A stretch of 64,000 nt of DNA from the human T2T-CHM13v2.0 reference genome, Homo sapiens, in NCBI RefSeq assembly GCF_009914755.1, contig NC_060936.1. The stretch is one strand, 5' to 3'. A program made the position numbers and the translations under genes. Positions within the stretch are counted from its first letter, which is position 1, and each line of letters begins with the position of its first letter. A model generated the notes under the pieces. The model searched no databases. It was not told the origin of the DNA and saw only the letters and a program-made list of their open reading frames with translations. Shown here one piece after another: positions 5,001 through 23,800 of the stretch.

Positions 5001-5770
5001 TTTTTTTTTTTGAGACGGCGTCTTGCTCCGTCACCCAGGCTGGAGTGCAGTGGTGCCACTCCTGGCGTAGGACTGAACATCAAAAAAAGAAAATATCAGG
5101 AAGAAAGGAAAGGCAGGGAAAGGGTGAGAGGGGAGAGGCTGACTAGGTGGTAAGAATTCCTCCGAAAGGTGAGGGGACACCACAGTCTGTTTCTTGAGTC
5201 AACAAAGTATGGAAACAGAGCTGAACGCAGATCCCTGCATGTCAAGCCTCTGCCAACAGGAGCGGCATTTCCATCCAAAACACATCAACATTCCAGTGGA
5301 GAGCATACTTATGGGGACCATTTGAAGGTTTCGTAATGATCAATTCTGCCAGGTGATTTAAGTTTCTTTCCTAAAACTGGAATCTAGGTAGGATGTGCAA
5401 CCAAGACCCCATCTCAGTCCTCGAAGAAACTGTGTTCTGAATTCTTTCGATTCATGCCCTTAGCTGACATTGAGGAGCTCCAAGAAATAGTCCTAGGAAA
5501 CCTGTTTGTTTATTACAAGGCTGCTATTTAGGATCTTACCACTATGCCATGTATATGAATAATTATCAAAACATTTTCTTTATGTGTAATTATCGGAAGT
5601 ATTTGCTTCTCCAGAGTAATTTGTCTGCTTTTTCCTTTTGACAAGAGGAACCCACGTTAACTATTCCTACTTCCCTTTCTGTTATGGCTTCTGGAAATAA
5701 CAGAAAAGCTTGCAGTTCAACTCTGTAACAGGGAAGGATCCCATTTCTTATTGATCTCTTCCAACTTTAA

Positions 5771-6127
<357 letters not shown>

Positions 6128-6177
6128 TAGACCCTTCTGTGTGTTGCAGAGATTTCTGTAAGCCTCATAACACCCAC

Positions 6178-6415
6178 GAAACAGAGGATAAACCGATAAC
6201 CCACCTGTGACTGGATCATTTTCATGAAACAGAGGATAAACCGATAACCCACCTGTGACTGGATCATTTTCATGAAACAGAGGATAAACCGATAACCCAC
6301 CTGTGACTGGATCATTTTCATGAAACAGAGGATAAACCGATAACCCACCTGTGACTGGATCATTTTCATGAAACAGAGGATAAACCGATAACCCACCTGT
6401 GACTGGATCATTTTC
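6178..6415. repeat. 48-bp tandem repeat, 5 copies, spanning the ZNF605 start codon and exon 3 splice donor
   Basis: Unit gaaacagaggataaaccgataacccacctgtgactggatcattttcat starts at 6178, 6226, 6274, 6322 and 6370. The copies are identical apart from the last being 46 nt. Confidence 0.97.
6397..6411 (-). CDS. ZNF605: ZNF605 first coding segment (MIQSQ), phase-0 donor GTGGGT; CDS continues outside the window
   Basis: Minus strand reads ggaaaATG ATC CAG TCA CAG|gtgggt with A at -3. This is a typical short KRAB-ZNF start exon, and the peptide matches the recalled ZNF605 N-terminus. Confidence 0.85.
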
Positions 6416-6573
6416 CGCTGCTCTTGGGAAATCTGCTGTTTTGTGACTTCTCTTAGTCCTGACACCCTGGAGTGGCCTCTGGTCAGTGGTCTGTAAACTG
6501 AGAATACATCCTTGGTCTTGTGGGCTCTTCTTTCTTATCTCACATGAATTGTCTTGTTCCAGAGGGCTATTGC
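6397..6573 (-). other. ZNF605: ZNF605 exon 3 (177 nt; 162 nt 5'UTR plus 15 nt CDS)
   Basis: Acceptor ccactgcatccacag|G (AG at 6575-6574) and donor CAG|gtgggt (GT at 6396-6395). Confidence 0.8.
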
Positions 6574-7670
6574 CTGTGGATGCAGTGGACATTTTATTTT
6601 AGATGATCTAATTAATTTGGGAACCTAAATCTTGGTGTTCTCTTGCTGGGAGCTCAGATTATTTAAAGTCTCGAACTAGATGTTGGGTAGGCTCACACCA
6701 GGGCTAGCGGGCGGGAAGCAGGGTGGAATGTGAGCTACTAGCACGTCTCCGTCGGGTCTGACCTGCATCTAGGCCAGGTCTGCAGTACGCACGGAACTGA
6801 ACAGCCCCGGCTCCACCCATAAATGCCAGATGGAAACCACTCCCCTGGCTGGTTCAAGCAGACACCTCCAGAGGAGCACCACTACCCTAGACTGCTCAGC
6901 ACAGACATCATGAAGCTCTGGAAATGCCATGAGGACTTATCCATTTGGCAGCAATACTTCCTGGAGGCACCTAAATCAAATTACTTGTGTTAAGTGCTAC
7001 AGAGTAAAACGCCAACTTACTTCTAGGCAGGGTGGTAAACAGAAAATGGACTTTAGACGGAGATGGATCAGCCCAGGAACAAAAGGAAAACATAGATCAG
7101 AGGAACTAATGTAAGAGTAAAAAAAGAAAAACAGACACCCCTGGGCAGACGCAGGCTGGGGTGGAGCTGAGGCGTGGGTCTGAGGCTGAGCAGGGCCTGG
7201 CTGCAGCCTACAGCAGATGGGAGCCAGAGGGCGCAGCAAGACACAAGGCAGGGAATGTCTTATGTTGCCTCTTCCCCAGTTCACACCGGAACAGATACTG
7301 CCTGCACTTTCCTTCAGAAATCAGCAGTAACAGCCCAGCTGCCGGTTTCCAAGGGGTACCTGAGGCAGACCCCAGTCCCTGTGGAACTGAGGAATCATGG
7401 AGGGGTAAAGGCTGCTGCTGTTCTTTGGGTATTTTCTGACCTCCTGCCTCCAGCATCCCAGGGCTGGGAGTTGCGGGAGTGGCAACTCACAAGCTGCCCA
7501 GAGTGGGGGCAGCTCACAGCTGGAAGAGGGGGCACAATTCCCAGGTCTACCCTCTGTCCTGGGCCCCTGAGCGCCCCTCTGCTTCAACTCATCAGAAGCT
7601 TCAGAGACTAAAGCCTGGCCTTCAGCCCTTCCCTCACGCGCATCTCCAGACCACGTGGGGGAGCAGCTGA

Positions 7671-8922: not shown

Positions 8923-9045
8923 ACTTTACATTTCTTCACTGCCCATGGACCAGGCCACTTAGATGAAGCCAGACACGGAATCAGAGCCAAAGAACTGAAG
9001 GACACGCAGCTGCACAGGGACGCTCTTTCCTTCATCAGAATGAGT
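8923..9045 (-). other. ZNF605: ZNF605 exon 2 (123 nt, 5'UTR)
   Basis: Acceptor catttcttttcag|A (AG at 9047-9046) and donor AGT|gtgagc (GT at 8922-8921), in non-repetitive sequence between exons 1 and 3. Confidence 0.75.
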
Positions 9046-9652: not shown

Positions 9653-10381
9653 CACCTGCAGGGCCCAGGAGGCGGGGACCAGTGTAGCTCACGCCTGGCA
9701 CCTGCGGAAGCAGACATCAGCGTAGCTCACGCCTGGCACCTGCAGGGAGCAGGAGGCAGAGACCAGTGTAGCTCACGCCTGCTTGGTATCTGTTGGGGGA
9801 AAGGCTTATGGGGTGCCTGTATTAACTGGCCATAAAAATATGGGACAAGAAGTTGTGGAAAGCCTCGGAGGAAAGCCTTCTTATCGCCGTGATGTTCCCA
9901 GGCTCTGAGTGAGTTGCTCCATCATCCATAAACACTGTGTTCAAGGAGAAGGACACTCCTTTGAAGCACTGGAAGCCAGACGTGCAGGCTCCTACTTAAG
10001 CCCACTCCCACTAGCTACTCTCCGATAAGTTAAAAATAGGCTGTTTGAGCACAAAGGAGATTCATTTAAACCACCAGTGCTATAGATTACACGTATGATG
10101 GGCGCACTGCCTCCCTTTCACTGTTTCGCCCTGAACGTCTGCTTCTTAGCTGTAAGTGATGGTACTCAATCAATAGAGTGGAGACCAGAACCCTGCGCCT
10201 TTTGCAGCCTCCGATTTGCAATTGGCCCCCTGGCCCTCACTCTTTATGCACTCTTAACCTGTCTCTTCTCATTCCTTTGTCGCCACCGGACTTTGGGTAC
10301 CCTACGGGTGGTGTTGAGGCTGGTCCCCAACAGTATCTGCAGGGAGCAGGAGGCGGAGACCAGTGTAGCTCGCGCCTGGCA
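9653..10381. repeat. ~38-50-bp degenerate minisatellite (cacctgcagggagcaggaggcggagaccagtgtagctcacgcctgg), 4 copies, split by an LTR
   Basis: Three units at 9653-9785 and one at 10333-10381. Confidence 0.8.
9791..10332 (+). mobile_element. Solo ERVK-class LTR (LTR22/HML-5-like) with 5-bp TSD gtatc
   Basis: TG...CA termini (tgttggggg...ccccaaca) and TSD at 9786-9790 and 10333-10337. The family name is from memory of the consensus ends. Confidence 0.7.
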
Positions 10382-11104: not shown

Positions 11105-12758
11105 CCCCACACACACTGATCTACAAGTACACGCACACTCAGACATGCGCACACACTCACGGATGCACACACATGCACACGTACAGACACGCACATACGT
11201 GCAGACGTGCACAGACGCACATACAGACACACAGACATGCACACACAGACGCACACGTACAGACATGCGCAGACATGCACACACACAGACGCACACACAC
11301 TCAGACACACTAATACACCCGTACATCACACACAGACGTGCACACACACTGATGCACACGTACACACACACAAAGACAGGCATACACAGACACCCTGAGT
11401 ACATCGCACATACACTCACAGACACACACAGATACACAGGTACACACACAGTACACACAGACATGCACACACACTCACAGATATGTACATCACACAGACA
11501 TGTACAGACATACTGATAACACACGTACATCACAGACATGTACACACAGACACACTGATACATCATACACAGAGACATGTACACACACTGATAACGAACA
11601 TCACACATACAGACATGTACAGACACACTGATACAAATACATCACACATACTCACAGACGCACACACATACTGATACACACGTAACGTATACACAGACAC
11701 GTACACATAGACATGCACACACACACTCAGACACACTGATACACATGTACATCACACGCAGACATGTACAGACATACTGATAACACGTACATCACAGACA
11801 TGTACACACAGATACATCATACACAGACATGTACACACACTGATACGTACATCACGCATACTCACAGACGTACAGACACACTGATACACAAGTACATCAC
11901 GCATACACACACACTGGTACATAACGTATACACAGACGTACACACAGACATGCACACACACTCAGACACACTGATACACATGTACATCACACATACACTC
12001 AGACACGTACATACAGACGCACATGTACATCACACACAGATACACGTACACACAGACACGTACACAGACATGCACACACTGATACACACGTACATCACAC
12101 ACACAGACACGTACACACAGATACACACGTACATCACACATATACGTACACACAGATACGTACATCACACACACTCACAGACACGTACACCCACAGATAC
12201 GTATCTCATACATATACACACTCAGACATGCACGCAGATTCATACATACATCACATATACACACACACGTACACACACACTGATGTACACGTACGTCACA
12301 CACACACATACACACACTGATGCACACGTATACCATACACACAGACATGCACACACTCAGACACAGATACACACGTTCGTATCACAGACACGTACAGATA
12401 CACTGATGCACACGTACATCCCACATAACATACACAGACATGCACAAACTCAGATATACACGTACACCACACATGCACACACAATGATACATACATGACA
12501 CATACACATGTACAACACACATCACACAGACAAGTACACACACATTGATACACATGTACATCACACATCACACACATACACATACACCACACATACACAT
12601 ACACGCATACATCACACACTATACTCACACTCATACACACATACACACTCATACACACATCACACACATTCAAACACATACGTACATCACACAATACACA
12701 TTCCCACACACGTACATACATCACATACACACACGTTCACACACATCACACACACACA
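11105..12758. repeat. ~1.65-kb degenerate (CA)n/(TACA)n low-complexity tract (UG-rich on the ZNF605 pre-mRNA)
   Basis: Near-continuous purine/pyrimidine alternation with recurring acacactgatacacacgtacatcacac motifs. Confidence 0.95.
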
Positions 12759-15155: not shown

Positions 15156-18100
15156 GTGAGGTGGGGAGGGGATGAGAAGGATGGGGGAGGAGAAGGGTGG
15201 GGAGGGGAGGAGAAGGGTGGGGAGGGAGGAGAAGGGTGGGGAGGGGAGGAGAAGGGTGGGGAGGGGAGGAAAGGGTGGGGAGGGGAGGAAAGGGTGGGGA
15301 GGGGGGAGAAGGGGTGGGAGGGGAGGAAAAGGGTGGGGAGGGGGAGAAGGGTGGGGGGAGGGGGGAGAAGGGTGGGGAGGGGAGGAGAAGGGTGGGGAGG
15401 GGGGAGAAGGGTGGGGAGGGGGGAGAAGGGTGGGGAGGGGGGAGAAGGGTGGGGAGGGGGGGAGAAGTGTGGGGAGGGGGGAGAAGGGTGTGGGGAGGGG
15501 GAGAGGGTGGGGAGGGGGGAGAAGGGTGGTGGAGAGGGGGAGAAGGGTGGGGAGGGGGGGGAGAAGGGATGGGGAGGGGGGAGAAGGGTGGGGAGGGGGG
15601 AGAAGGGTGGGGGGAGGGGGGGAGAGGGTGGGGGAGGGGGAGAAGGGTGGGAGGGGGCGAAGGGGAGAGGGGGGAGAAGGGGTGGGGAGGGGGGAGAAGG
15701 GTGGGGAGGGGGGAGAAGGGTGGGGAGGGGGGAGAAGGGTGGGGAGGGGGAGAAGGGTGGGGAGGGGGGAGAAGGGTGGGAGGGGGGAGAAGGGTGGGGA
15801 GGGGGAGAAGGGTGGGGAGGGGGGAGAAGGGTGGGGAGGGGGAGAAGGTGGGGAGGGGGGAGAAGGGTGGGGAGGGGGGGAGAAGGGTGGGAGGGGGGAG
15901 AAGGGTGGGGAGGGGGGGAGAAGGGTGGGGAGGGGGAGAAGGGTGGGGAGGGGGGAGAAGGGTGGGGAGGGGGGAGAAGGGTGGGGAGGGGGGGAGAAGG
16001 GTGGGAGGGGGGAGAAGGGTGGGGAGGGGGGAGAAGGGGTGGGGAGGGGGAGAAGGGTGGGAGGGGGAGAAGGGTGGGAGGGGGGAGAAGGGTGGGAGGG
16101 GGGGGAGAAGGGTGGGGAGGGGGGAGAAGGGTGGGAGGGGGGGAGAAGGGTGGGAGGGGGGAGAAGGGTGGGGAGGGGGGAGAAGGGTGGGGAGGGGGGG
16201 AGAAGGGTGGGGAGGGGAGAAGTGTGGGGAGGGGGAGAAGGGTGGGGAGGGGGGAGAAGGGTGGGGAGGGGAGGAGAAGGGTGGGGAGGGGGAGAAGGGT
16301 GGGGAGGGGGGAGAAGGGTGGGAGGGGGGAGAAGGGTGGGAGGGGGGGAGAAGGGTGGGGAGGGGAGGAGAAGGGTGGGAGGGGGGAGAAGGGTGGGGAG
16401 GGGGGAGAAGGGTGGGAGGGGGAGAAGGGTGGGGAGGGGGGGGAGAAGTGTGGGGAGGGGGGAGAAGTGTGGGAGGGGGGAGAAGGGTGGGGAGGGGGAG
16501 AAGTGTGGGGAGGGGGGAGAAGGGTGGGAGGGGGGGAGAAGGGTGGGAGGGGAGGAGAAGGGTGGGAGGGGGGGAGAAGTGTGGGGAGGGGGGAGAAGGG
16601 TGGGGAGGGGGAGAAGTGTGGGAGGGGGGAGAAGGGTGGGAGGGGGGAGAAGGGTGGGAGGGGAGGAGAAGGGTGGGAGGGGGAGAAGGGTGGGAGGGGG
16701 AGAAGGGTGGGGAGGGGGGAGAAGGGTGGGGAGGGGGGAGAAGGGTGGGGAGGGGGAGAAGGGTGGGGAGGGGGAGAAGGGTGGGGAGGGGAGGAGAAGG
16801 GTGGGGAGGGGGGAGAAGTGTGGGAGGGGGGAGAAGGGTGGGGAGGGGAGGAGAAGGGTGGGAGGGGGGAGAAGGGTGGGGAGGGGGAGAAGTGTGGGGA
16901 GGGGGGAGAAGGGTGGGAGGGGAGGAGAAGGGTGGGGAGGGGGGAGAAGGGTGGGGAGGGGGGAGAAGGGTGGGAGGGGGGAAGAAGGGTGGGGAGGGGG
17001 AGAAGGGTGGGGAGGGGGGAGAAGGGTGGGGAGGGGGGAGAAGGGTGGGAGGGGGGAGAAGGGTGGGGAGGGGGGAAGAAGGGTGGGAGGGGGAGAAGGG
17101 TGGGAGGGGGGGAGAAGGGTGGGGAGGGGGGAGAAGGGTGGGAGGGGAGGAGAAGGGTGGGAGGGGGGAGAAGGGTGGGAGGGGAGGAGAAGGGTGGGAG
17201 GGGGGAGAAGTGTGGGAGGGGGGGAGAAGGGTGGGGAGGGGAGGAGAAGGGTGGGGAGGGGGAGGAGAAGGGTGGGAGGGGGGAGAAGGGTGGGAGGGGG
17301 GAGAAGGGTGGGGAGGGGAGGAGAAGGGTGGGAGGGGGGGAGAAGGGTGGGAGGGGGGAGAAGTGTGGGAGGGGGGGAGAAGGGTGGGGAGGGGAGGAGA
17401 AGGGTGGGAGGGGGAGAAGGGTGGGGAGGGGGGAGAAGGGTGGGGAGGGGGGAGAAGGGTGGGAGGGGGAGAAGGGTGGGAGGGGGAGGACAAGGGTGGG
17501 GAGGGGGGAGAAGTGTGGGGAGGGGGGAGAAGTGTGGGGAGGGGGGGAGAAGTGTGGGAGGGGGGAGAAGGGTGGGGAGGGGGAGGAGAAGGGTGGGGAG
17601 GGGGAGAAGGGTGGGGAGGGGGAGAAGGGTGGGGAGGGGGGAGAAGGGTGGGAGGGGAGGAGAAGGGTGGGGAGGGGGGAGAAGGGTGGGAGGGGGGAGA
17701 AGGGTGGGAGGGGGAGAAGGGTGGGGAGGGGGAGGAGAAGGGTGGGGAGGGGGGGAGAAGGGTGGGAGGGGAGGAGAAGGGTGGGAGGGGGGAGAAGGGT
17801 GGGAGGGGAGGAGAAGGGTGGGGAGGGGGGGAGAAGGGTGGGAGGGGGAGAAGGGTGGGGAGGGGGGAGAAGGGTGGGGAGGGGGGGAGAAGGGTGGGAG
17901 GGGAGGAGAAGGGTGGGGAGGGGAGGAGAAGTGTGGGAGGGGGGAGAAGGGTGGAGGGGGAGGAGAGGGGTGGGAGGGGGGAGAAGGGTGGGGGGGAGAA
18001 GGGTGGGGAGGGGGGGAGAAGGGTGGGAGGGGGAGGAGAAGTGTGGGAGGGGGGGAGAAGGGTGGGGAGGGGAGGAGAAGGGTGGGGAGGGGGGAGAAGG

Positions 18101-21100
18101 GTGGGGAGGGGGGAGAAGGGTGGGAGGGGAGGAGAAGGGTGGGGAGGGGGGGAGAAGGGTGGGGAGGGGAGGAGAAGGGTGGGGAGGGGGGGAGAAGGGT
18201 GGGGAGGGGGGAGAAGGGTGGGAGGGGGGAGAAGGGTGGGAGGGGGGAGAAGGGTGGGGAGGGGGGAGAAGGGTGGGAGGGGGAGAAGGGTGGGAGGGGA
18301 GGAGAAGGGTGGGGAGGGGGGAGAAGGGTGGGAGGGGGGAGAAGGGTGGGAGGGGGAGAAGGGTGGGAGGGGGAGAAGGGTGGGGAGGGGGGAGAAGGGT
18401 GGGGAGGGGGGAGAAGGGTGGGGAGGGGGGAGAAGGGTGGGAGGGGGGAGAAGGGTGGGAGGGGAGGAGAAGGGTGGGGAGGGGGGAAGGGGCGGGGAGA
18501 AGGGTGGGGAGGGGGGGAGAAGGGTGGGGAGGGGGAGGAGAAGGGTGGGAGGGGGGAGAAGGGTGGGAGGGGAGGAGAAGGGTGGGGAGGGGAGGAGAAG
18601 GGTGGGGAGGGGGGGAGAAGGGTGGGAGGGGGGAGAAGGGTGGGAGGGGAGGAGAAGGGTGGGAGGGGGGAGAAGGGTGGGGAGGGGAGGAGAAGGGTGG
18701 GGAGGGGGAGGAGAAGGGTGGGGAGGGGGGAGAAGGGTGGGGAGGGGAGGAGAAGGGTGGGAGGGGGGAGAAGGGTGGGAGGGGGGAGAAGGGTGGGAGG
18801 GGGGGAGAAGGGTGGGAGGGGGGAGAAGGGTGGGAGGGGAGGAGAAGGGTGGGGAGGGGAGGAGAAGGGTGGGGAGGGGGGAGAAGGGTGGGGAGGGGGG
18901 GAGAAGGGTGGGAGGGGGAGGAGAAGGGTGGGAGGGGGGAGAAGGGTGGGGAGGGGGGAGGAGAAGGGTGGGAGGGGAGGAGAAGGGGTGGGGAGGGGGG
19001 AGAAGGGTGGGGAGGGGAGGAGAAGGGTGGGGAGGGGGGAGAAGGGTGGGGAGGGGGGAGAAGGGTGGGGAGGGGGGAGAAGGGTGGGGAGGGGAGGAGA
19101 AGGGTGGGAGGGGGAGGAGAAGGGTGGGGAGGGGGGAGAAGGGTGGGAGGGGGAGGAGAAGGGTGGGGAGGGGGGAGAAGGGTGGGGAGGGGGGGAGAAG
19201 GGTGGGGAGGGGGGAGAAGGGTGGGAGGGGAGGAGAAGGGTGGGAGGGGGGAGAAGGGTGGGGAGGGGAGGAGAAGGGTGGGAGGGGGAGGAGAAGGGTG
19301 GGGAGGGGGGGAGAAGGGTGGGGAGGGGAGGAGAAGGGTGGGAGGGGGAGAAGGGTGGGGAGGGGGAGGAGAAGGGTGGGAGGGGGGAGAAGGGTGGGAG
19401 GGGGAGAAGGGTGGGAGGGGAGGAGAAGGGTGGGGAGGGGAGGAGAAGGGTGGGAGGGGGGAGAAGGGTGGGGAGGGGAGGAGAAGGGTGGGGAGGGGGG
19501 AGAAGGGTGGGGAGGGGGGAGAAGGGTGGGGAGGGGGGAGAAGGGTGGGAGGGGGGGAGAAGGGTGGGAGGGGAGGAGAAGGGTGGGGAGGGGGGGAGAA
19601 GGGTGGGGAGGGGGGAGAAGGGTGGGGAGGGGGGGAGAAGGTGGGAGGGGGGAGAAGGGTGGGGAGGGGAGGAGAAGGGTGGGAGGGGGGAGAAGGGTGG
19701 GGAGGGGGGAGAAGGGTGGGAGGGGGGAGAAGGGTGGGGAGGGGAGGAGAAGGGTGGGAGGGGGGAGAAGTGTGGGAGGGGGGGAGAAGGGTGGGAGGGG
19801 GGAGAAGGGTGGGGAGGGGAGGAGAAGGGTGGGGAGGGGGGGAGAAGGGTGGGAGGGGAGGAGAAGGGTGGGAGGGGGAGAAGGGTGGGAGGGGGGGAGA
19901 AGGGTGGGGAGGGGAGGAGAAGGGTGGGAGGGGAGGAGAAGGGTGGGGAGGGGGGGAGAAGGGTGGGAGGGGGGGAGAAGGGTGGGGAGGGGAGGAGAAG
20001 GGTGGGGAGGCGGGGGAGAAGGGTGGGAGGGGGGAGAAGGGTGGGAGGGGGGAGAAGGGTGGGGAGGGGAGGAGAAGGGTGGGAGGGGGAGAAGTGTGGG
20101 AGGGGGGAGAAGGGTGGGAGGGGGGGAGAAGGGTGGGGAGGGGGGGGGAGAAGGGTGGGGAGGGGGAGGAGAAGGGTGGGGAGGGGAGGAGAAGGGTGGG
20201 GAGGGGGGGAGAAGGGTGGGGAGGGGTGGAGAAGGGTGGGGGAGGGGGGAGAAGGGTGGGGAGGGGGAGGGAAGGGTGGGGAGGGGGGGAGAAGGGTGGG
20301 GAGGGGGAGGAGGAAGGGTGGGGAGGGGGGAGAAGGGTGGGGAGGGGAGGAGAAGGGTGGGGAGGGGGGAGAAGGGTGGGGAGGGGGGAGAAGGGTGGGG
20401 AGGGGAGGAGGAAGGGTGGGGAGGGGGGGAGAAGGGTGGGGAGGGGGGAGAAGGGTGGGGAGGGGTGAGGAGAAGGTGGGGAGGGGGGGGAGAAGGGTGG
20501 GGAGGGGGGGAGAAGGGTGGGAGGGGGGAGAAGGGTGGGGAGGGGGGGGAGAAGGGTGGGGAGGGGGGAGAAGGGTGGGGAGGGGGAGGAGAAGGTGGGG
20601 AGGGGGGGAGAAGGGTGGGGAGGGGGGGGAGAAGGGTGGGGAGGGGGGAGAAGGGTGGGGAGGGGGGGAGAAGGGTGGGGAGGGGGGGAGAAGGGTGGGG
20701 AGGGGGGAGAAGGGTGGGGAGGGGGGGAGAAGGGCTGGGGAGGGGGGAGAAGGGTGGGGAGGGGGGGAGAAGGTGGGGAGGGGGGAGAGGGTGGGAGGGG
20801 GAGAAGGGTGGGGAGGGGGGAGGGGGGGGAGAAGGGGTGGGGAGGGGGGGAGAAGGGTGGGGAGGGGGGGAGAAGGGTGGGGAGGGGGGGAGAAGGGGTG
20901 GGGAGGGGGGTGAGAAGGGTGGGGAGGGGGGAGAAGGGTGGGGAGGGGGGAGAAGGGAGGGGAGGGGGGAGAGAAGGGTGGGGAGGGGGGGGAAGGGTGG
21001 GGAGGGGAGGAGAAGGTGGGAGGGGAGGAGAAGGGTGGGAGGGGAAAGGGTGGGGAGGGGGGAGAAGGGTGGGGAGGGGGAGAAGGGTGGGAGGGTGGAG

Positions 21101-21851
21101 AAGGGTGGGGAGGGGAGGAGAAGGGTGGGGAGGGGGGAGAAGGGTGGGGGAGGGGGGAGAAGGGTGGGGAGGGGGAGAAGGGTGGGAGGGGGGAGAAGGG
21201 GGGGAGGGAGGAGAAGGGTGGGGAGGGGGGAGAAGGGTGGGGGAGGGGGGGAGAAGGGTGGGGGAGGGGGGGAGAAGGGTGGGAGGGGAGGAGAGGGTGG
21301 GGAGGGGGAGGAGAAGGGTGGGGGAGGGGGGGGAGAAGGGTGGGGAGGGGGGGAGAAGGGGTGGGGAGGGGGGAGAAGGGTGGGGAGGGGGGAGAAGGGT
21401 GGGAGGGGAAAGGGTGGGGAGGGGGGGAGAAGGGTGGGGAGGGGGGGGAGAAGGGTGGGGAGGGGGGAGAAGGGTGGGGAGGGGGAGGAGAAGGGTGGGG
21501 AGGGGAGGAGAAGTGTGGGGAGGGGGGAGAAGGGTGGGGAGGGGAGGAGAAGGGTGGGGAGGGGGGGGAGAAGGTGGGGGAGGGGGGAGAAGGGTGGGGA
21601 GGGGGGAGAAGGGGTGGGAGGGGGGAGAAGGGTGGGGAGGGGGGGGGAGAAGGGGTGGGGAAGGGGGAGAAGGGTGGGGGGGAGAAGGGTAGGGAGGGGA
21701 GGAGAAGGGTGGGGGAGGGGGGGAAGAAGGGTGGGGGAGGGGGGGGGAGAAGGGGTGGGGAGGGGGGGGGAGAAGGGTGGGGAAGGGGGAGAAGGGTGGG
21801 GGGAGAAGGGTAGGGAGGGGAGGAGAAGGGTGGGGAGGGGAGGAGAAGGGG
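15156..21851. repeat. ~6.7-kb G-rich minisatellite, ~19-23-bp unit (ggagaagggtggggaggggg), roughly 300+ copies, in ZNF605 intron 1
   Basis: Directly visible. Units vary in G-run length, by gga insertions, and as aagtgtggg variants. Confidence 0.98.
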
Positions 21852-23229: not shown

Positions 23230-23800
23230 GCAACCTCGCGTCCCCTTGCCCCGCCCGTGCTGCACCCCAAGTCTACAGCGACCTCCATAGGCCCCCAGTG
23301 AATCGCCCAGCTGACCCCAAATCTCCCCCGACACCCACATTCAGCGCCCCGCCGCCGCCCGCCCTACAGCCCCCACCCCACCCTCTGCCTCCCACCCCCG
23401 CGCGCCCCCAGAGCCCCCGCCTGAGGCCCGCCTTCCGCGCATGCGCCCAGGCCGGTCCGCAGGCCTTTCTCGCCCCAGCCGGCAGCCAGCTCGTTCGCGC
23501 TGGGGTCACCGCGAGCCGGTCCGCAGCGGGGTCACCGCGATCCCCGGCGCAGACACAGAGGCCGCCCCCAGCCCCGCCGCCTCGTGGTCCCGCCCCCGCT
23601 GCACGCTCCCTTACCCCTCGGACCTCGCAGGGCCGCGGCGGACACGGCCCGATCGGGGACGTGAACGCGCAGAACTACATTTCCCAGCGTCCCGCTCGCG
23701 CTGGAACTACACTTCCCGGGGGGCTCGGCGGTGCACCCGCCGGGGTCGCGGATTGGAGGTTTCCGGTTGGAAAAGCCCCTTGGCGGCTAACTGGGGAGGA
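23230..23800 (-). promoter_or_regulatory. ZNF605: ZNF605 CpG-island promoter with NRF1 and two ZNF143/THAP11-type motifs
   Basis: CpG-dense. GCGCATGCGC at 23437-23446, ACTACATTTCCCAG at 23674-23687, ACTACACTTCCCGG at 23706-23719, and GC boxes. Confidence 0.88.
23615..23680 (-). other. ZNF605: ZNF605 exon 1 (non-coding; TSS approximate)
   Basis: Donor GAGGG|gtaagg (GT at 23614-23613) inside the CpG island, just downstream of the ACTACA motifs. Confidence 0.7.

What the first reader, a model, noticed from the sequence alone, without database searches (positions are those of the whole stretch)
6178..6415. 48-bp VNTR that multiplies the ZNF605 start codon and 5' splice site in frame
Seen: on the sense strand each unit reads AAA ATG ATC CAG TCA CAG|GTGGGT TAT CGG TTT ATC CTC TGT TTC ATG. 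This gives five identical donors (GT at 6396, 6348, 6300, 6252, 6204), each preceded by an ATG with A at -3. The 48-nt unit is 16 codons with no stop. Inference: donor n adds (n-1) copies of VGYRFILCFMKMIQSQ (up to 64 aa, hydrophobic and Cys-containing) ahead of the KRAB domain. Leaky scanning to the last ATG would regenerate the canonical protein. Copy number would then set the isoform repertoire, translation efficiency and possibly stability or localisation of a KRAB-ZNF. This is the best candidate for an undescribed system in the window.
Basis: partly seen in the sequence, partly recalled or inferred. Interest (0 to 1): 0.85.

Follow-up and report, generated by a model that had tools for sequence, protein, structure and literature searches.

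The report
Minisatellite repeating ZNF605 start and donor
A 48-base stretch holding the start codon and splice donor of the human gene ZNF605 is repeated five times in a row; this is a real but already described kind of arrangement, in which the cell most likely uses only the first copy.

Summary
Window 6178-6415 is a perfect tandem array (period 48, 5.0 copies, 100% identity). Its first unit spans the end of the first coding exon of ZNF605. The start codon and the donor CAG|GTGGGT therefore recur four more times in the intron, and every donor would keep the reading frame.

The claim of an undescribed system does not hold. Minisatellites whose first monomer spans an exon-intron boundary are a described class: F7 IVS7, IFI6, CBS and LMNB2 (PMC1557585). 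I found those four arrays in this same genome. In F7 (37-bp unit, same GTGGGT hexamer) only the most upstream donor is used. In IFI6 and CBS two further copies are used.

Both RefSeq transcripts use donor 1, and no predicted model uses a later one. No RNA data and no second haplotype were available. So neither the isoform ladder nor copy-number variation could be tested.

Best reading: a near-neutral minisatellite with four silent reserve donors (confidence 0.6). Minor in-frame +16-aa isoforms remain possible. It is a new member of a known kind. The reiterated start codon and the NMD-proof frame make it a clean natural test of donor choice.

The parts
6178..6415 (-). 48-bp minisatellite: four full units plus a 46-base last unit, all identical
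   Evidence: TRF; sequence; only one place in the CHM13 genome
6397..6573 (-). Annotated ZNF605 exon (5'UTR plus the first 15 coding bases); its last 19 bases are the start of repeat unit 1
   Evidence: RefSeq table, (2 of 2 transcripts)
6409..6411 (-). Annotated start codon, context aaaATGA
6391..6399 (-). Donor 1 (CAG|GTGGGT), the annotated 5' splice site
   Evidence: computed U1 duplex -11.4 kcal/mol, nine contiguous pairs
6343..6351 (-). Donor copy 2 (pseudo-site), preceded by ATGs at 6369 and 6363
6295..6303 (-). Donor copy 3 (pseudo-site), preceded by ATGs at 6321 and 6315
6247..6255 (-). Donor copy 4 (pseudo-site), preceded by ATGs at 6273 and 6267
6199..6207 (-). Donor copy 5 (pseudo-site), preceded by ATGs at 6225 and 6219
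6172..6177 (-). GTGGGT hexamer in the unique flank just after the array (TTC|GTGGGT), a weak donor-like site. The flank reads CGT where the unit junctions read CAT.
   Evidence: U1 duplex -6.9 kcal/mol
6127..6129 (-). Stop codon that closes the frame if the intron is read through (94 codons from 6411)

Best explanation
This is a minisatellite made by tandem duplication of a 48-bp piece of ZNF605. The duplicated piece held the last 4 bases of the 5'UTR, the whole 15-base coding part of the first coding exon (ATG plus four codons) and the first 29 bases of the intron. The first unit is the real exon end. The other four units lie in the intron and carry exact copies of the start codon and of the 5' splice site. 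The splicing machinery most likely picks the most upstream of the identical donors, as shown by experiment for the F7 IVS7 minisatellite. The four downstream copies would then be silent but competent reserve sites, and the normal 641/672-aa protein would be made whatever the copy number. The open 16-codon frame is a by-product of a period that happens to be divisible by three. Shown here: the array, its register against the annotated exon, the identity of the donors and the frame arithmetic. Inferred: that donor 1 is used almost exclusively, that the array is selectively near-neutral, and that the CAT at the unit junctions arose from the flank's CGT by a CpG transition before the unit was amplified.
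For: Array and register. Donors identical in 5 of 5. Exon ends at donor 1 in 2 of 2 RefSeq transcripts. There are 0 Gnomon models for ZNF605 although the table holds 3266 Gnomon mRNAs on chr12. PMC1557585 (abstract and sections 4, 6 and 12 read) defines the class. For F7 (37-bp unit, UGG/gugggu, five to nine copies) it shows that only the most upstream site is used. It also shows that each pseudo-site works once the ones before it are inactivated, and that this holds in several cell types. The same paper reports that only the authentic site is used in LMNB2 (about 100-bp unit) and in a PDGF gene (81-bp unit). At 48 bp, ZNF605 lies between F7 and those. The F7, IFI6, CBS and LMNB2 arrays are present in this genome. 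The F7 sites have computed U1 duplex energies similar to ZNF605 (-10.7 to -11.0 against -11.4 kcal/mol). The sequence 21-48 nt upstream of donor 1 is 61% purine, against 36% for donors 2-5. That fits an exon-like context only for donor 1. No named protein of 52-164 aa carries the repeat peptide. The rhinoceros relative P0121 has a single Met plus four residues directly before the KRAB start, so a single copy is the old state.
Against: No RNA evidence could be examined. The two NM records are built from cDNAs of unknown alleles and placed by alignment, so they do not show what a five-copy allele does. IFI6 and CBS use the first two pseudo-sites as well as the authentic site (PMC1557585 section 4). 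[quoted passage not shown] Products from later donors would be in frame, hence not removed by nonsense-mediated decay, so even rare use could accumulate. The absence of Gnomon models is weak evidence. The protein search was limited by length and by the exclusion of sample-only proteins (1137 candidates left out).
Confidence: 0.6

Rival explanations
1. Donor 1 dominates, but donor 2 (and perhaps donor 3) is used in a minor, copy-number-dependent share of transcripts. That would give ZNF605 isoforms with 16 or 32 extra residues ahead of the KRAB domain, as in IFI6 and CBS.
For: [quoted passage not shown] All five ZNF605 donors are identical and fairly strong (U1 duplex -11.4 against -14.0 kcal/mol for the consensus). 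All products are in frame, so none is an NMD target.
Against: No annotated or predicted transcript uses a later donor. The monomers of IFI6 (12 bp) and CBS (31 bp) are shorter, while F7 at 37 bp already shows exclusive use of the first site. No matching protein was found.
Confidence: 0.27
2. Intron-proximal dominance. On multi-copy alleles all five sites are occupied by U1 and the last one (6205) is spliced. The five-copy allele would then mainly make a protein with 64 extra N-terminal residues, and copy number would change the protein itself.
For: [quoted passage not shown]
Against: The natural in vivo cases listed in PMC1557585 all use the upstream site or sites. The intron here is about 12.5 kb, so 48-192 nt hardly changes the distance to the acceptor. 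Nothing in the annotation supports it.
Confidence: 0.05
3. The array works as RNA rather than as coding sequence. In this view a cluster of five U1-binding sites just inside a long intron strengthens definition of the weakly coding exon or suppresses premature cleavage in the intron, and copy number tunes the expression level.
For: There are five strong U1-complementary sites within 240 nt. The general role of U1 beyond splicing is named in abstracts listed, which I did not read further.
Against: Nothing here tests it. The array shows no special RNA structure (z = -1.46; 8 of 100 shuffles fold at least as well). The single-copy state is ancestral. Perfect identity of the copies fits recent neutral expansion as well.
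Confidence: 0.06

Closest known systems
F7 intron 7 (IVS7) 37-bp minisatellite (Borensztajn et al. 2006, PMC1557585)
   Same: The first monomer spans the exon-intron junction. The authentic donor is followed by copies of identical sequence. The intron hexamer is the same (GTGGGT), followed by a pyrimidine-rich stretch. Copy number is similar: 5-9 in the paper, and 6.1 copies with six GTGGGT sites in CHM13. Computed U1 pairing is similar.
   Different: The F7 unit is 37 bp, not a multiple of 3, so most pseudo-site products shift the frame. Only 4 exon bases lie in the F7 monomer, against 19 in ZNF605. F7 has no start codon in the unit, and the exon is internal and fully coding. The F7 copies are 96% alike, against 100% here. 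F7 behaviour is shown by experiment; ZNF605 behaviour is not.
IFI6 (6-16) 12-bp minisatellite at the exon 2 / intron 2 border (Turri et al. 1995; known to me through PMC1557585 section 4 and a reference list; the paper itself is not held)
   Same: The donor is reiterated by a minisatellite that starts at the exon end. The unit length is a multiple of 3, so extra donors add whole codons.
   Different: The IFI6 unit is 12 bp with about 25 copies at 85% identity in CHM13. The donors are so close that U1 footprints must overlap. The insertion is internal to the protein, not at the N-terminus. No start codon lies in the unit.
CBS intron 13 31-bp VNTR and LMNB2 ~100-bp minisatellite (as listed in PMC1557585 section 4)
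   Same: They belong to the same class, in which the first monomer carries the donor. Both arrays are seen in CHM13: CBS period 31, 17.8 copies, 92% identity; LMNB2 period 105, 11.9 copies, 95% identity.
   Different: CBS uses two pseudo-sites and LMNB2 uses none. Neither unit holds a start codon. I could not check their register against exons, because no exon table was available for those chromosomes.
Short-distance tandem donors (GYNGYN type) and protein-coding VNTRs (both recalled, no call)
   Same: Alternative 5' splice sites in tandem, and a repeat whose copy number could change protein length.
   Different: Tandem donors of that type are 3-12 nt apart and are not made by a minisatellite. 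In coding VNTRs the repeat lies inside the annotated coding sequence, whereas here only the first 15 bases of the array are annotated as coding.

Membership tests
Minisatellite whose first monomer spans an exon-intron boundary (F7 IVS7 / IFI6 / CBS / LMNB2 class, PMC1557585) | Head-to-tail array of several monomers of minisatellite size (about 10-100 bp) | tested here: met
   Period 48, 5.0 copies, 100% identity
Minisatellite whose first monomer spans an exon-intron boundary (F7 IVS7 / IFI6 / CBS / LMNB2 class, PMC1557585) | The first monomer contains the annotated exon-intron junction | tested here: met
   The array starts at 6415 and the exon ends at 6397 in 2 of 2 RefSeq transcripts
Minisatellite whose first monomer spans an exon-intron boundary (F7 IVS7 / IFI6 / CBS / LMNB2 class, PMC1557585) | [quoted passage not shown] | tested here: met
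   5 of 5 sites have the same 11-mer and the same computed U1 duplex
Minisatellite whose first monomer spans an exon-intron boundary (F7 IVS7 / IFI6 / CBS / LMNB2 class, PMC1557585) | Copy number varies between people (VNTR) | not testable with these tools
   Only the CHM13 haplotype is available. PMC6467913 lists ZNF605 among genes with an insertion or deletion in a UTR but gives no position in the text, and supplements are closed.
Minisatellite whose first monomer spans an exon-intron boundary (F7 IVS7 / IFI6 / CBS / LMNB2 class, PMC1557585) | Splicing uses the most upstream site, alone or with the next one or two | not testable with these tools
   No RNA data. The annotation is consistent with this: donor 1 in 2 of 2 transcripts and no Gnomon model.
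Protein-coding VNTR | Repeat units lie inside the coding sequence of the expressed transcript | tested here: not met
   Only 15 of the 238 bases are annotated as coding. The rest would be coding only if later donors were used.
Short-distance tandem 5' splice sites (GYNGYN type; definition recalled) | Alternative donors a few nucleotides apart | tested here: not met
   The spacing is 48 nt

The most novel reading that the evidence does not exclude
On alleles with several units, a measurable share of ZNF605 transcripts is spliced from the second to fifth donor. Because the unit also carries the start codon and keeps the frame, carriers would make KRAB zinc-finger proteins with 16-64 extra hydrophobic, cysteine-containing N-terminal residues. 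The amounts would be set by copy number, and initiation at the reiterated ATGs would give a second layer of N-terminal variants. This would be the first case in which a minisatellite multiplies start codon and donor together. All its products escape nonsense-mediated decay, so it would also be a natural human allelic series for testing whether upstream-first or intron-proximal choice rules among identical 5' splice sites.
Probability: 0.2. Interest if true: 0.55.

Novelty: new member of a known kind. Interest (0 to 1): 0.3.

Why it matters
If only donor 1 is used, the array is one more example of a described curiosity and has little effect on ZNF605. Its value lies in being a clean natural experiment. 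The identical donors are 48 nt apart, every alternative product is in frame, and the products should therefore be stable. Read counts in genotyped people would report donor choice directly, without the loss of frameshifted products that clouds the F7 and CBS cases. That bears on an old disagreement: cell-based work finds that the first of several identical donors wins (PMC1557585), while in vitro work finds that the one nearest the acceptor wins (PMC3413131). The array also matters for variant interpretation. A mutation of the annotated donor or start codon of ZNF605 may be buffered by the next unit. Short reads and indel callers will also be unreliable across this exon end.

Tried and rejected
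Other copies in the genome. A search of CHM13 with the 238-bp array found only the array itself (1 place). It is therefore not part of a dispersed repeat, although the tool skips simple repeats and closed regions.

Proteins carrying the repeat peptide.
- The 94-aa read-through frame found nothing: 43 word-sharing candidates, 0 at E <= 10, and 1137 sample-only candidates left out. Only proteins of 52-164 aa could be seen.
- A search with the zinc-finger exon gave 436 proteins at E <= 1e-150 among 7412 candidates. The best 120 were listed, all at 64% identity or less. All were paralogous zinc-finger proteins and none was a primate ZNF605, so it gave no orthologue N-termini.
- A search restricted to the linker (residues 1-124) gave 1 protein among 5 candidates, the rhinoceros model P0121.
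- All three protein searches are now used. Primate isoforms could not be examined.

RNA structure hiding the later donors. The fold of 6150-6450 is unremarkable (z = -1.46), so I rejected structure as an explanation.

Signal peptide or membrane segment in the extension. The highest 19-residue Kyte-Doolittle mean is 1.16, below the usual 1.6 cut-off, which I recall. I rejected this idea.

Dating from the perfect identity of the copies. With a recalled rate of 0.5e-9 per base per year, the chance of no change in 238 bp is 0.89 at 1 Myr, 0.30 at 10 Myr and 0.05 at 25 Myr. Identity therefore only says the array is younger than a few tens of Myr, or is being homogenised.

Inferring the GRCh38 copy number from published coordinates. 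I abandoned this. The anchors lie on one side of the array, and a 6.7-kb variable-looking array lies between them.

Literature on this array. The word ZNF605 was paired with six other terms:
- VNTR: 2 papers
- tandem repeat: 7 papers
- sQTL: 0 papers
- splice: 8 papers
- minisatellite: 0 papers
- insertion: 12 papers
I read the ZNF605 passages of 5 of these papers and judged the rest by title and abstract. None describes the array. Supplementary tables are closed, and tables in the SV and VNTR catalogues (for example those of PMC6467913 and PMC5477513) may list it.

The PDGF example in PMC1557585. I found no many-copy 81-bp array in the PDGFA span of CHM13. I did not check PDGFB.

No splice-site scoring model (MaxEnt or a deep model) was available. 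I used U1 duplex energy as a crude stand-in.

Full report
What is there. The minus strand of the window is the sense strand of ZNF605. TRF finds one array in 5500-7200: 6178-6415, period 48, 5.0 copies, 100% matches, no indels, score 476. In sense orientation each unit holds GAAA, the start codon and four more codons (ATG ATC CAG TCA CAG), then GTGGGT and 23 further bases that end in a pyrimidine-rich stretch. RefSeq places the end of the exon at 6397 and the coding part at 6397-6411 in both ZNF605 transcripts, NM_183238.4 (the select one) and NM_001164715.2. The first unit is therefore the true end of the first coding exon, made of 4 bases of 5'UTR and the whole 15-base coding piece, plus the first 29 bases of the intron. 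The remaining four units are intronic copies. The array occurs once in the CHM13 genome.

- The five donor 11-mers are identical (CAG|GTGGGTTA), with exon-last bases at 6397, 6349, 6301, 6253 and 6205.
- Each donor is preceded by an ATG in the context aaaATGA (6411, 6363, 6315, 6267, 6219). Each unit junction adds one more in-frame ATG with T at -3 (6369, 6321, 6273, 6225).
- The unit translates to a 16-residue peptide, VGYRFILCFMKMIQSQ, with no stop.
- When a script joins each donor to the KRAB-A exon and the rest of the gene, all five frames stay open: 641, 657, 673, 689 and 705 aa, or 672 to 736 aa with the optional 93-nt exon.
- Two cautions apply. First, 2 of 3 sense frames of the unit are open. 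By my arithmetic, a period divisible by three with 16 stop-free codons has a chance of roughly 0.15, so the open frame is no sign of selection. Second, variable number cannot be seen in one haplotype.

How strong the sites are and what differs between them. Pairing to the 5' end of U1 snRNA, computed with ViennaRNA, gives -11.4 kcal/mol and nine contiguous pairs for all five sites. A full consensus site gives -14.0. The other ZNF605 donors give -5.4, -9.7, -9.2 and -11.6. The sites are good, and they are identical to beyond +27 on the intron side. The only difference is further upstream: positions -48 to -21 are 61% purine before donor 1 (true exon) and 36% before donors 2-5 (the pyrimidine-rich tail of the previous unit). 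The RNA fold of the region is unremarkable (z = -1.46). The possible extension is moderately hydrophobic but below the level of a membrane segment.

Origin. The unit junctions read TTTC-AT-GAAA, while the unique flank after the last unit reads TTTC-GT-GGGTG. The simplest history is a duplication of a 48-bp segment ending in CGT. A CpG-to-CpA change in the first copy then created the extra ATG, and that unit was amplified. This history is inference. Perfect identity of the copies only bounds the age loosely. The black rhinoceros model P0121 is 73% identical in the linker. It has a single Met plus four residues directly before the KRAB start, so the short first coding piece is old and single-copy outside primates.

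What is known. Borensztajn et al. 2006 (PMC1557585; I read the abstract, introduction, first results section and discussion) describe exactly this arrangement as a class: minisatellites whose first monomer spans an exon-intron boundary, so that the donor is reiterated in the intron.
- Their members are IFI6/6-16 (authentic site plus 25 pseudo-sites, of which the two most proximal are used constitutively) and CBS intron 13 (15-20 repeats, two pseudo-sites used).
- The last is F7 intron 7 (37-bp monomer, five to nine copies, donor UGG/gugggu, only the most upstream site used).
- With about 50 minigene constructs they show that every F7 pseudo-site works once those before it are destroyed.
- The most upstream working site is always chosen. 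Pseudo-sites strengthened up to a consensus value of 91 still do not compete. The result holds in several cell types.
- I confirmed four of these arrays in the same genome: F7 period 37, 6.1 copies, 96% identity, six GTGGGT sites; IFI6 period 12, 24.8 copies, 85%; CBS period 31, 17.8 copies, 92%; LMNB2 period 105, 11.9 copies, 95%.
- I found no 81-bp many-copy array in PDGFA.
- ZNF605 meets the three structural criteria of the class. It even shares the intron hexamer of F7.

What it most likely does. Among the natural cases the short monomers (12 and 31 bp) let the next one or two copies be used. The longer ones (37, 81 and about 100 bp) do not. At 48 bp, and with an exon-like purine-rich context only before donor 1, ZNF605 most likely behaves like F7: donor 1 is used, and the other four are silent reserve sites. 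The annotation agrees. Both curated transcripts use donor 1, and ZNF605 has no predicted model, although the same table holds 3266 Gnomon mRNAs on chr12 and several for the neighbouring ZNF genes. I give this reading 0.6.

Evidence against that reading.
- The curated mRNAs come from unknown alleles and are placed by alignment, so they are silent about a five-copy allele.
- IFI6 and CBS show that extra copies can be used.
- In vitro, substrates with two identical strong donors about 174 nt apart bind two U1 particles and splice almost wholly to the downstream, intron-proximal site. Lowering active U1 shifts use to the upstream site (PMC3413131, passages only).
- All ZNF605 alternatives are in frame, so they would not be cleared by nonsense-mediated decay.
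Intron-proximal dominance and a U1-cluster regulatory role get about 0.05 each.
The first ATG has a purine at -3, which by the recalled Kozak rule is the main determinant. A ribosome would also have to pass 2(n-1) in-frame ATGs to reach the last one.
- One caveat applies to that point. The select transcript has five upstream ATGs, all closed by stops before the main ATG, so reinitiation may blur the choice of start.

Novelty. The class is described, so the array is not an undescribed system. I found no paper describing this ZNF605 array: six searches pairing ZNF605 with a second term gave 2, 7, 0, 8, 0 and 12 papers, and none is about it. The closest mentions are as follows. ZNF605 is listed among 23 constraint-intolerant genes with an insertion or deletion in a UTR (PMC6467913, passage). 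It is also among 10 genes with recurrently mutated UTRs in a tumour genome study (PMC5477513, passage). Neither text gives a position, and supplements are closed. What is new relative to the known members is that the unit carries the start codon as well as the donor and that every product would be in frame. I rate it a new member of a known kind, of modest interest (0.3). Its main value is as a clean natural test of how identical 5' splice sites are chosen.

Limits. I had no RNA data, no second human haplotype, no primate genomes and no splice-site scoring model, and the protein word search returned no primate ZNF605. The statements on IFI6, CBS, LMNB2 and PDGF splicing rest on the introduction of PMC1557585. 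The original IFI6 paper is not held.

Noticed in passing
window 15160-21850: A very large G-rich minisatellite lies in ZNF605 intron 1: 19-bp unit on the + strand, about 351 copies, 88% matches, 6.7 kb, TRF score 9597. It is C-rich on the gene's sense strand. It could account for the hg19 gene span quoted in PMC6928650 (34,874 bp) being shorter than the CHM13 distance from stop codon to transcription start (37,532 bp).
   Followed up: no
window 9791-10332 (+): A solo LTR of 542 bp has TG...CA ends and is flanked by the 5-bp target duplication that PMC5142424 gives for its HML-10 LTR in a ZNF605 intron, antisense to the gene. It was the only such pair in the window (1 pair among 25 occurrences of the 5-mer). 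It is absent from the masked_repeat list, so that list is not a full repeat annotation. The 48-bp array is absent from it too.
   Followed up: partly
window 11210-12758: A CA-rich complex repeat of about 1.5 kb with many overlapping TRF periods.
   Followed up: no
window 6412-6573, 8923-9045, 23615-23678 (-): The 5'UTR of NM_183238.4 holds five upstream ATGs and that of NM_001164715.2 holds two. All are closed by stops before the main ATG, and two are one-codon ORFs. Translation of ZNF605 may therefore depend on leaky scanning or reinitiation.
   Followed up: partly
L004 2105-2329 (F7 intron 7, chr13): In CHM13 the F7 minisatellite has six GTGGGT sites. The first and last differ from the middle four at intron position +7 (A instead of G).
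   Followed up: partly
L012-L014 (PDGFA, chr7): No many-copy 81-bp array like the one PMC1557585 cites for a 'PDGF gene' is present in the PDGFA span of CHM13. Only two-copy arrays of 91-118 bp are there. PDGFB was not checked.
   Followed up: partly
window 6172-6177 (-): The unique flank directly after the array begins with the same GTGGGT hexamer as the intron (TTC|GTGGGT, weak as a donor at -6.9 kcal/mol). The single-copy ancestor would thus have had two GTGGGT motifs 27 bases apart, a possible aid to slippage.
   Followed up: no
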